Part shown: positions 11,434 to 14,400 of the stretch, piece after piece
Layout: each line of letters begins with the position of its first letter
How positions within the stretch are numbered: the first letter of the stretch is position 1
Source of the DNA: Escherichia coli
GTDB lineage: Bacteria > Pseudomonadota > Gammaproteobacteria > Enterobacterales > Enterobacteriaceae
DNA: 64,000 bases
NCBI RefSeq assembly: GCF_003334785.1
Contig: NZ_QOWV01000003.1
Direction: 5' to 3' (one strand)
Position numbers: made by a program

Positions 11434-14400
11434 TAGCAATGCGAATATTTGTCTACGGCAGTTTACGCCACAAACAAGGCAACAGTCACTGGATGACCAA
11501 TGCCCAGTTACTGGGCGATTTCAGTATCGATAACTACCAGTTGTATAGCCTGGGCCACTATCCAGGCGCAGTTCCGGGGAACGGAACAGTACACGGTGAA
11601 GTTTATCGTATTGACAACGCCACGCTGGCCGAACTTGATGCCTTGCGCACCAGGGGCGGTGAATACGCGCGCCAGTTGATTCAGACGCCGTACGGGAGTG
11701 CATGGATGTACGTTTATCAACGACCCGTCGATGGATTAAAGCTAATTGAAAGCGGCGACTGGTTAGACAGGGATAAGTAATAATAAAAGCACGCCACCTT
11801 CGGGTGGCGTTGTTTTATGCGATGTATCTCGCGATTTTTTTTTGTAACTTTTCCATCTTTTGCTTTTCTCTCCGAGCCGCTTTCCATATCTGCAATCGCA
11901 TAAAAAACTCTGCTGGCGTTCACAAATGTGCAGGGGTAAAACGGGGGCACGCTTTGAACGGTGAGTATGAGTGAGGTCGGCTAACTTCCAGCAAGTGGCT
12001 ATGAACAGCAAAATGGTGGTCGGGTTTGCTTGTTCTTACCGTTCAAGCCTTGCAACCGCTGAGAATAATGATGGTGGAATAGAGAGTTTATTTATCGCGG
12101 GCATAAAAAAACCCTTACTAACCGAAGCCCGGCGTTCAGGGTTATTGCGCTAGAAGAACTTATTTATTCTTTGCGCGCTCGAAGGAAGCAACGATTTCAG
12201 CTTTAGCGGCTTCTGCGTTTTCCCAACCTTCAACTTTCACCCACTTGCCTTTTTCGAGGTCTTTGTAGTGCTCGAAGAAGTGAGCGATCTGCGCTTTCAG
12301 CAGCTCTGGCAGATCGTTAACGTCTTTAATGTGATCGTATTCTTTGCTCAGCTTTGTGTGCGGAACAGCAATCAGTTTCGCATCTTCACCGGCTTCGTCG
12401 GTCATTTTCAGAACGCCAACCGGACGGCAACGGATCACAGAACCCGGCTGCAGCGGGTACGGAGTCGGGACCAGTACGTCAACCGGGTCACCGTCCAGAG
12501 ACAGGGTGTGGTTGATGTAACCGTAGTTGCACGGATAGAACATCGCGGTGGACATGAAGCGGTCAACGAACAGTGCGCCGCTCTCTTTGTCGATTTCGTA
12601 TTTGATCGGATCTGCGTTAGCCGGGATCTCAATAACAACGTAGATGTCTTCCGGCAGATCTTTACCCGCAGGGACGTTGAGTAAGCTCATGTCTGTTTCC
12701 TTTAAAAATATGTGGCAAACAAGTGCCGAGTATTATAGCCAACTCGCGCCGAATGTCTTCGCTTGTTTTCGTCTTCATTTTCCTTTTTCGCCAATTTTAA
12801 GACGGTATACAGAGCAGGAAAATCCATAACCGTAGCCGCATTTTTCATAGTGAGATGAAAGCGATTACAAACTTGTGATTAACGTTTTATTTACTTCTTT
12901 GAAGTGTGATGTAACGCAATCCGTTACATAACGAATTGTCTATAGTTTTTTCGCGAACATCTTTTCACCAATAATAATTACCCCGACGAGGACAACCCTA
13001 TGTGGAAACGCTTACTTGTAGTCTCTGCAGTCTCGGCAGCCATGTCGTCTATGGCGTTGGCCGCTCCATTAACCGTAGGATTTTCGCAGGTCGGATCGGA
13101 ATCTGGCTGGCGCGCCGCAGAAACCAATGTGGCGAAAAGTGAGGCCGAAAAACGCGGAATTACGCTGAAAATTGCCGATGGTCAGCAAAAGCAGGAAAAC
13201 CAGATTAAAGCGGTACGTTCCTTCGTCGCGCAAGGGGTGGATGCGATCTTTATCGCTCCGGTGGTTGCGACTGGTTGGGAACCGGTATTAAAAGAGGCGA
13301 AAGATGCCGAAATCCCGGTCTTCTTGCTCGATCGTTCTATTGATGTGAAAGACAAATCTCTCTATATGACCACCGTCACTGCCGACAACATTCTCGAAGG
13401 CAAGTTGATTGGTGACTGGCTGGTAAAAGAAGTGAATGGCAAACCATGCAACGTGGTGGAGCTGCAGGGCACTGTTGGGGCCAGCGTCGCCATTGACCGT
13501 AAGAAAGGCTTTGCCGAAGCCATTAAGAATGCGCCAAATATCAAAATTATCCGCTCGCAGTCAGGTGACTTCACCCGCAGTAAAGGCAAAGAAGTCATGG
13601 AGAGCTTTATCAAAGCGGAAAACAACGGCAAAAACATCTGCATGGTTTACGCCCATAACGACGACATGGTGATTGGTGCAATTCAGGCAATTAAAGAAGC
13701 GGGCCTGAAACCAGGCAAAGATATTCTGACAGGTTCTATCGACGGCGTACCGGATATCTACAAAGCGATGATTGATGGCGAAGCGAACGCCAGTGTTGAA
13801 CTGACGCCGAATATGGCAGGTCCCGCCTTCGACGCGCTGGAGAAATACAAAAAAGACGGCACCATGCCTGAAAAGCTGACGCTGACCAAATCCACCCTTT
13901 ATCTGCCTGATACCGCAAAAGAAGAGTTAGAGAAGAAGAAAAATATGGGGTATTGAGGGTTGCTATGCCTGATGCCGATTCGTAGGCCGGATAAGGCGCT
14001 CGCGCCGCATCCGGCGGTGGTGCGCTGAAGCCTGATGCGACGCTTACCGCGTCTTATCATGCCTACTGGGAGCACGCTTTACACCGGGGGAAACCATGAC
14101 GACTAACCAACACCAGGAGATCCTCCGCACCGAAGGATTAAGTAAATTTTTCCCCGGCGTCAAAGCGTTAGACAACGTTGATTTCAGCCTGCGCCGCGGC
14201 GAAATCATGGCGCTGCTCGGTGAAAACGGGGCAGGAAAATCAACGCTAATCAAAGCATTAACTGGTGTATACCACGCCGATCGCGGCACCATCTGGCTGG
14301 AAGGCCAGGCTATCTCACCGAAAAATACCGCCCATGCACAACAACTCGGTATCGGCACCGTCTATCAGGAAGTAAACCTGCTACCCAATATGTCGGTCGC

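What the first reader, a model, noticed from the sequence alone, without database searches (positions are those of the whole stretch)
11781..12159. No chpSB toxin-antitoxin module between ytfP and ppa
In the K-12 arrangement I recall, the chpS/chpB pair lies between ytfP and ppa. Here the interval is ~380 bp with only a terminator hairpin and one implausible 60-aa ORF, so this strain lacks that module or never acquired it.
Basis: partly seen in the sequence, partly recalled or inferred. Interest (0 to 1): 0.3.

Follow-up and report, generated by a model that had tools for sequence, protein, structure and literature searches.

The report
Decayed chpB remnant, chpSB module lost
This E. coli strain lacks the chpS/chpB toxin-antitoxin pair that K-12 carries between ytfP and ppa, but a decayed 125-base piece of chpB remains there, so the module was lost rather than never present; this absence is a common polymorphism already described in the literature.

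Summary
The window has tamB–ytfP–379 bp–ppa(−)–ytfQ, and K-12 carries chpS/chpB in the same slot (886-bp interval). The interval is not just a terminator and a spurious ORF. Window 11953–12077 is a decayed fragment of chpB (codons 7–48; 92/127 nt identical; z≈30 against shuffles), in the same position and orientation. It has two in-frame stops and two 1-nt deletions. The chpS gene, its conserved operator and promoter region, and the 3′ 201 nt of chpB are deleted, the latter between TGGTGG direct repeats. So "never acquired" is refuted: the module was lost. The same deletion allele occurs in E. albertii, in a divergent E. coli lineage, and downstream of esiB in CFT073. Intact chpSB sits at the same offset from ytfP in Enterobacter, Lelliottia, Kluyvera and Pseudocitrobacter, so presence looks ancestral and loss derived. 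Among 5,426 complete E. coli genomes, 3,100 carry chpSB, 188 carry esiB, and about 2,130 have this short allele. The three-state polymorphism was published in 2013 (PMC3735183); only the remnant appears undescribed in the papers I could search. This is an ordinary finding of low interest.

The parts
11439..11780 (+). ytfP (gamma-glutamylcyclotransferase family protein), left boundary gene
   Evidence: ORF; annotated as ytfP in ML35, identical over the window's first 25 kb
11791..11817 (+). ytfP intrinsic terminator: 8-bp GC-rich hairpin (ACGCCACC-TTCG-GGTGGCGT) plus T-run. This is the same hairpin that is duplicated on either side of esiB in CFT073
   Evidence: MFE -24.5 kcal/mol, z -4.0, 0 of 200 shuffles as stable; hairpin invariant across 10 genera and alleles; duplicated in CFT073
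11781..11943 (+). Left flank, homologous to the K-12 ytfP-chpS spacer up to about 49 bp before the chpS start codon
   Evidence: alignment to K-12 (about 90% identity) and to strain BEC1 (100% over 163 bp)
11944..11952 (.). Left deletion junction (about 9 nt of unassignable sequence). It replaces about 300 bp of K-12 sequence: the chpS operator/promoter, all of chpS and chpB nt 1-18
   Evidence: operator GTTATAC-TTT-GTATAAC and the Shine-Dalgarno site are conserved in all chpSB+ genera and absent here
11953..12077 (+). chpB pseudogene remnant (codons 7-48 of 116). Stops at 11962-11964 (TGA) and 11982-11984 (TAA); 1-nt deletions near 11965/66 and 12027/28
   Evidence: blastn 92/127 identical, E 2e-15; codon-by-codon map; local score 53 against 10.2 +/- 1.4, maximum 16, in 1000 dinucleotide shuffles
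12072..12077 (+). TGGTGG at the right deletion junction. In K-12 chpB, TGGTGG occurs at nt 140 and nt 341, and the 201 nt between them are missing here
   Evidence: alignment
12078..12159 (.). Right flank, homologous to the K-12 chpB-stop to ppa-stop spacer
12103..12143 (-). Probable ppa terminator (AACCCU...AGGGUU hairpin followed by U7)
   Evidence: centroid hairpin plus U-run, but the fold energy is not better than shuffles, so this rests on the hairpin/U-run anatomy and on conservation in K-12
11971..12153 (+). It is out of frame with the chpB remnant and runs through the ppa terminator
   Evidence: start codon GTG to GTA in E. albertii and frame broken in CFT073; not annotated by PGAP in ML35
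12160..12690 (-). ppa (inorganic diphosphatase), right boundary gene

Best explanation
The ytfP-ppa interval of this E. coli strain is the 'short' allele of a known three-state locus (chpSB, esiB or neither). It is a decayed chpSB locus. Two deletions removed (i) the chpS operator/promoter, all of chpS and the first 18 nt of chpB, and (ii) 201 nt of the chpB 3' half, between two TGGTGG repeats. Codons 7-48 of chpB were left behind and have since picked up two stop codons, two frameshifts and about 27% substitutions. What remains functional is the ytfP terminator and, probably, the ppa terminator. The remnant has no recognisable promoter, no start codon and no antitoxin partner, so I infer it is inert. 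The allele is old: identical junctions are found in E. albertii and in divergent E. coli lineages. It is exchanged between lineages by homologous recombination in the conserved flanks. Shown: the homology, the lesions, the shared junctions and the allele frequencies. Inferred: the order of the two deletions, microhomology-mediated slippage as the cause of the right one, and neutrality of the remnant.
For: K-12 has chpS/chpB in this slot. Three-way alignment shows both flanks conserved and an internal 125-bp block aligned to chpB nt 19-145. blastn gives 92/127 identity, E 2e-15, and tblastn to ChpB gives E 5e-06 with a stop inside the match. z is about 30 against dinucleotide shuffles. Stops and frameshifts are mapped codon by codon. 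The same junctions and the same TAA are present in E. albertii L009, E. coli L007 and CFT073 L002. The remnant is closest to Escherichia chpB (72-74%, against 48-60% for other genera). Intact chpSB sits about 211 bp after ytfP in Lelliottia, Enterobacter, RIT691, Pseudocitrobacter and Kluyvera, with a conserved operator. Different ChpB and ChpS fragments occur in C. sedlakii and E. cloacae. Remnant identity between the window and E. albertii is 87.2%, about the same as third-codon positions of ytfP (87.7%) and ppa (87.6%). No Rfam family matches the interval and no promoter-like site was found in it. Allele counts: chpSB in 3,100 of 5,426 genomes, esiB in 188, short interval covered at 80% or more in 2,321, which includes the esiB strains. 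Strain BEC1 has a left flank 100% identical to the window but carries chpSB, which shows recombination inside the interval. The three-state polymorphism is published (PMC3735183).
Against: The remnant is 26-28% diverged from every intact Escherichia chpB, while the intact copies differ by only 0-5% over the same columns. This fits long neutral decay but also fits descent from a distinct, older chpB allele. The exact left junction cannot be resolved; about 9 nt are unassignable. Neutrality rests on one pairwise comparison over 125 sites. Transcription was not measured. The rest of this strain's genome is not available, so a chpSB copy elsewhere cannot be strictly excluded, although the collection shows 3,101 places in 3,100 genomes, only 3 of them on plasmids.
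Confidence: 0.9

Rival explanations
1. The lineage never acquired chpSB. The short interval is the ancestral empty site, and chpSB was inserted in K-12-like lineages.
For: Many Enterobacteriaceae have a truly short ytfP-ppa gap of 93-190 bp with no chpSB-derived sequence detected. TA modules are often horizontally acquired (general knowledge; review PMC2654758).
Against: The window's interval contains a disabled chpB fragment in the syntenic position and orientation. A gene fragment cannot predate the gene. chpSB lies at a constant offset from ytfP across genera.
Confidence: 0.02
2. The remnant is the relic of an older resident chpSB copy that was lost before the Escherichia species diverged. 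Under this reading the intact chpSB now found in 57% of E. coli genomes was re-introduced later by recombination from a relative, so in E. coli the short allele is the older state.
For: The remnant is about equally distant (70-74%) from all intact Escherichia chpB genes, which are 95-100% identical to one another across E. coli, E. whittamii and two other Escherichia species. The short allele is shared with E. albertii. Mosaic alleles such as BEC1 show that the module moves by flank recombination.
Against: Purifying selection on an intact toxin gene and unconstrained decay of the remnant can together produce the same pattern. The remnant is still closer to Escherichia chpB than to any other genus. 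The ytfP-chpS spacer of chpSB+ E. coli is collinear with the window's left flank.
Confidence: 0.2
3. The chpB-derived segment has been co-opted, for example as part of a 3'UTR, a small RNA or a small protein (the 60-aa ORF).
For: The segment persists with the same boundaries in E. coli, E. albertii and esiB strains. The ORF frame stays open in E. albertii and L007 apart from the start codon.
Against: No Rfam match. No promoter-like site in the interval, and it lies between two convergent terminators. Its divergence equals silent-site divergence of the neighbouring genes. The ORF start is lost in E. albertii and the frame is broken in CFT073. PGAP does not annotate it.
Confidence: 0.03
4. The short interval is an assembly or sequencing artefact (a collapsed region).
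For: One genome (HH45) does show an apparently corrupted consensus at this locus.
Against: About 2,000 independent complete genomes carry the interval at 99% identity or more, and many genomes are 100% identical to the window over 25 kb.
Confidence: 0.01

Closest known systems
chpSB (chpBI/chpBK) type II toxin-antitoxin module of E. coli K-12, MazEF/PemIK family
   Same: Same chromosomal slot (ytfP-ppa), same orientation, same flanking spacers. 125 bp are homologous to chpB codons 7-48.
   Different: No chpS, no operator/promoter, and no chpB start codon or C-terminal 68 codons. The remaining part has 2 stops and 2 frameshifts. It is not a functional module.
The 'neither esiB nor chpBS' state of the esiB locus described by Pastorello et al. 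2013 (mBio, PMC3735183)
   Same: This is that state: ytfP and ppa adjacent, with a single copy of the hairpin repeat. That paper gave 32% of 47 genomes; here it is about 39% of 5,426.
   Different: The passage I read does not mention that this state, and the DNA downstream of esiB, retains a chpB fragment. Here esiB strains are seen to be derived from the short allele, not from a chpSB allele.
Decay of chromosomal toxin-antitoxin systems by pseudogenisation and deletion. The general framework is in PMC2654758.
   Same: A chromosomal TA module that is polymorphic within the species, with inactivated and partly deleted copies left at the ancestral site.
   Different: A different TA family and locus. 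Here a single old deletion allele is shared across species, rather than many independent recent lesions.

Membership tests
Functional chpSB / MazEF-family type II TA module | Intact antitoxin gene (ChpS, AbrB/SpoVT-type) directly upstream of the toxin gene | tested here: not met
   tblastn with K-12 ChpS finds nothing in the interval (best E 0.41) or in the whole window (E above 2). The alignment shows chpS entirely deleted.
Functional chpSB / MazEF-family type II TA module | Intact toxin ORF (ChpB, PemK/MazF fold, 116 aa) | tested here: not met
   Only codons 7-48 remain, with TGA and TAA stops and two 1-nt deletions. There is no start codon.
Functional chpSB / MazEF-family type II TA module | Autoregulated promoter with the palindromic operator GTTATAC-TTT-GTATAAC and a Shine-Dalgarno site upstream of chpS | tested here: not met
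   The operator is conserved in all 7 aligned chpSB+ loci from 6 genera and is absent from the window and from the E. albertii short allele. No promoter-like site was found in the interval.
Pseudogene remnant of chpB | Statistically significant homology to the parent gene at the syntenic position and in the same orientation | tested here: met
   92/127 nt, E 2e-15. Score 53 against a maximum of 16 in 1000 shuffles; the reverse-complement control scores 13. Both flanks are collinear with K-12.
Pseudogene remnant of chpB | Disabling lesions (truncation, stops, frameshifts) | tested here: met
   with shared lesions in 4 independent lineages.
Pseudogene remnant of chpB | Evolves without selective constraint | tested here: inconclusive
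   Between the window and E. albertii, remnant identity is 87.2% against 87.7% and 87.6% at third positions of ytfP and ppa, but 70-74% at third positions of tamB and ytfQ. This is a single pair over 125 sites.
esiB (c5321) allele of the locus | Sel1-repeat gene esiB between two copies of the ytfP terminator hairpin | tested here: not met
   No EsiB similarity in the window region. There is only one hairpin copy, at 11791-11810.
Rho-independent terminators bounding convergent genes | GC-rich hairpin followed by a U-run just after the stop codon | tested here: met
   ytfP terminator: (z -4.0). For ppa, a hairpin plus U7 is seen, but its energy is not better than shuffles.

The most novel reading that the evidence does not exclude
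The presence/absence of chpSB at ytfP-ppa is an ancient trans-species polymorphism. A single deletion allele older than the E. coli / E. albertii split would have been maintained alongside the intact module at intermediate frequency (about 39% against 57% today), implying long-term balancing or frequency-dependent selection on carriage of a chromosomal toxin-antitoxin system rather than simple drift and decay.
Probability: 0.2. Interest if true: 0.4.

Novelty: already known. Interest (0 to 1): 0.12.

Why it matters
It matters little. It confirms that chpSB is accessory in E. coli, absent from about 43% of complete genomes, and that this window carries the common chpSB-negative allele. The one useful refinement is for annotation and for studies of TA evolution. 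The 'empty' allele, and the DNA downstream of esiB in B2 strains, is a chpB pseudogene relic. Loss is therefore the derived state, and esiB entered a locus that had already lost chpSB. Studies that link chpSB presence to clinical traits (for example PMC6096937) are scoring an old, recombining presence/absence allele rather than recent gain.

Tried and rejected
(1) An Rfam scan of 11300-13100 at E up to 1 gave only a sub-threshold S15-leader hit inside ppa, which I treated as chance, and nothing in the interval. (2) The promoter scan found no sigma-70-like site in the interval. (3) tblastn of ChpS and ChpB against the whole 64-kb window found no other MazF/ChpB-like or ChpS-like gene. (4) The 60-aa ORF was rejected as a gene: it is not conserved, not annotated, and overlaps the ppa terminator. 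(5) Searches of the held paper library for a prior description of the chpB remnant found none. Subscription-journal papers, such as the 2015 Microbiology survey of TA distribution by phylogroup cited in PMC5120126, could not be read, so prior description cannot be excluded. (6) Strain HH45, whose locus looked like an intermediate allele, turned out to contain a C/G-rich junk stretch typical of a corrupted consensus, so I did not use it as evidence. (7) I did not determine the phylogroup of the window strain, and I could not search the rest of its genome. As a proxy, mazEF is present in 4,419 of 5,426 complete genomes, which does not settle the question for this strain.

Full report
WHAT IS THERE. 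The window is E. coli chromosome. Its first 25 kb are 100% identical to several complete genomes, for example strain ML35. The local gene order is tamB (7657-11436, +), ytfP (11439-11780, +), a 379-bp gap (11781-12159), ppa (12160-12690, -) and ytfQ (13000-13956, +).

IS THE RECALLED K-12 ORDER RIGHT? Yes. In a K-12 genome the same slot is 886 bp long and holds chpS and chpB, co-oriented with ytfP and convergent with ppa.

THE INTERVAL IS NOT EMPTY. I aligned the window, K-12 and a second chpSB+ strain. The first 163 bp (11781-11943) and the last ~82 bp (12078-12159) of the interval are the K-12 spacers. Between them lies a block that aligns to the 5' part of chpB. blastn gives 92/127 identities to chpB nt 19-145 (E 2e-15), and tblastn with ChpB gives E 5e-06 with a stop codon inside the match. 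A local-alignment shuffle test gives a score of 53, against 10.2 +/- 1.4 (maximum 16) for 1000 dinucleotide shuffles. The reverse-complement control scores 13.

Mapped codon by codon, window 11953-12077 corresponds to chpB codons 7-48. It carries TGA at 11962-11964, TAA at 11982-11984, and 1-nt deletions near 11965/66 and 12027/28. ChpS has no detectable trace. The operator palindrome GTTATAC-TTT-GTATAAC and the Shine-Dalgarno site precede chpS in every chpSB+ genus examined, and both are absent here.

The right-hand deletion removes exactly the 201 nt between the TGGTGG at chpB nt 140 and the TGGTGG at nt 341. That is the signature expected of slippage or illegitimate recombination at a short direct repeat; this mechanism is an inference. 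The left junction (11944-11952) is too decayed to resolve to the base.

HOW OLD AND HOW COMMON. The same two junctions and the same TAA are present in E. albertii (L009), in a divergent E. coli lineage (L007), and in CFT073 downstream of esiB (L002). So this is one old allele, not a recent private deletion.

The remnant is closest to Escherichia chpB (72-74%, against 48-60% for other genera). Remnant copies differ from one another by 4-17%, whereas intact Escherichia chpB genes differ by 0-5% over the same columns. Between the window and E. albertii the remnant is 87.2% identical. That is about the same as third-codon positions of ytfP (87.7%) and ppa (87.6%) and the non-coding left flank (88.9%), so the remnant shows no special constraint.

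Among 5,426 complete E. coli genomes, chpSB is present in 3,100 (3,101 places, 3 of them on plasmids) and esiB in 188. The short interval is covered at 80% or more in 2,321 genomes, a figure that includes the esiB strains. That gives roughly 57% chpSB, 3.5% esiB and 39% short allele.

OUTGROUPS. I fetched ytfP loci from 80 representative genomes. Intact chpSB lies in the same slot, starting about 211 bp after ytfP, in these taxa:
- E. whittamii and two other Escherichia species
- Lelliottia
- Enterobacter asburiae
- an unnamed enterobacterium (RIT691)
- Pseudocitrobacter
- Kluyvera

Protein identity to K-12 in these taxa is 63-98%. Different fragments survive elsewhere: ChpB residues 63-107 in Citrobacter sedlakii and ChpS residues 9-31 in Enterobacter cloacae. 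Presence of chpSB at this site is therefore most simply ancestral for this part of the family, with repeated losses. 'Never acquired' can be rejected for the window's lineage.

RECOMBINATION AND THE esiB STATE. Strain BEC1 has a left flank 100% identical to the window over 163 bp and yet carries chpSB. Alleles are therefore reshuffled by homologous recombination within and around the interval. In CFT073, esiB sits between two copies of the ytfP terminator hairpin and is followed by the whole short allele, including the chpB remnant. esiB therefore entered a locus that had already lost chpSB.

FUNCTION. What still works in the interval is transcription termination for the two convergent genes. 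The ytfP hairpin is strong and is conserved across the genera compared. The ppa hairpin with its U7 run is recognisable, although its folding energy is unremarkable. The remnant lies between the two terminators. It has no promoter-like site, no Rfam match and no conserved ORF, and PGAP leaves it unannotated. I infer that it is inert.

COMPARISON WITH WHAT IS KNOWN. Pastorello et al. 2013 (PMC3735183) already described the locus as having three states. In 47 genomes they found chpBS in 53%, esiB in 15% and neither in 32%. They also noted the hairpin-like direct repeats flanking esiB.

The passage I read does not mention the chpB relic, and I found no description of it in the searchable library. 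I could not read subscription-only papers on TA distribution, so prior description cannot be excluded. The relic is a minor refinement, not a new kind of thing.

OPEN POINT. The remnant is 26-28% diverged from all intact Escherichia chpB genes, while those genes are nearly identical to one another. Two readings fit this. Either the deletion allele is very old and has coexisted with the intact allele across species boundaries, or intact chpSB was re-spread recently by recombination. Both are compatible with the data, and neither changes what the window contains.

VERDICT. This is an already known polymorphism of low interest.

Noticed in passing
L086 (E. coli HH45, NZ_CP116411.1) 1198-1709: A 512-bp ytfP-ppa interval. 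It combines short-allele flanks, a C/G-rich low-complexity stretch, and chpB nt 19-119 at 100% identity to K-12, then the short-allele 3' end. PGAP calls a partial PemK/MazF pseudogene there. It looks like a corrupted or chimeric consensus, but it could be a real gene conversion between alleles.
   Followed up: partly
H1 (E. coli FDAARGOS_1250, NZ_CP069571.1 477168-479196): An IS1A element lies within the stretch matched by the ytfP-to-ppa query in a strain otherwise 100% identical to the window there. I did not map its exact insertion point.
   Followed up: no
L003 (E. coli BEC1-S17-ESBL-07) 2501-3387: A mosaic allele: the left flank is 100% identical to the window's short allele over 163 bp but is followed by intact chpSB. 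This is evidence for recombination breakpoints inside the interval.
   Followed up: partly
L010, L016, L015, L032, L040, L053, L079 (ytfP-ppa intervals of other Enterobacteriaceae): The same slot carries unrelated cargo in other genera: a TonB-dependent receptor plus YncE-like beta-propeller (Citrobacter gillenii); an Hcp(TssD)-domain 403-aa protein (Salmonella arizonae, and a similar ORF by N-terminal sequence in C. youngae); a methyl-accepting chemotaxis protein (Silvania, and a similar unscanned ORF in Pluralibacter); a NadS/HTH antitoxin-like pair (Pluralibacter); and 2-3 ORFs with no NCBIfam hit (Enterobacter). ytfP-ppa therefore looks like a general small-cargo hotspot.
   Followed up: partly
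summary: Three of the 3,101 chpSB places in complete E. coli genomes are on plasmids. I did not examine them.
   Followed up: no
window 10439-13956 vs L009 (E. albertii): Third-codon-position identity is much higher in ytfP and ppa (about 88%) than in the adjacent tamB and ytfQ (70-74%). This could reflect codon bias in ppa or a more recent exchange of the ytfP-ppa segment between E. coli and E. albertii.
   Followed up: no
window 11818-11842: A second small hairpin (TGCGATGTATCTCGCG) followed by a T9 run, directly after the ytfP terminator. The T-run is interrupted in K-12 (ATTCTGTTTT).
   Followed up: no
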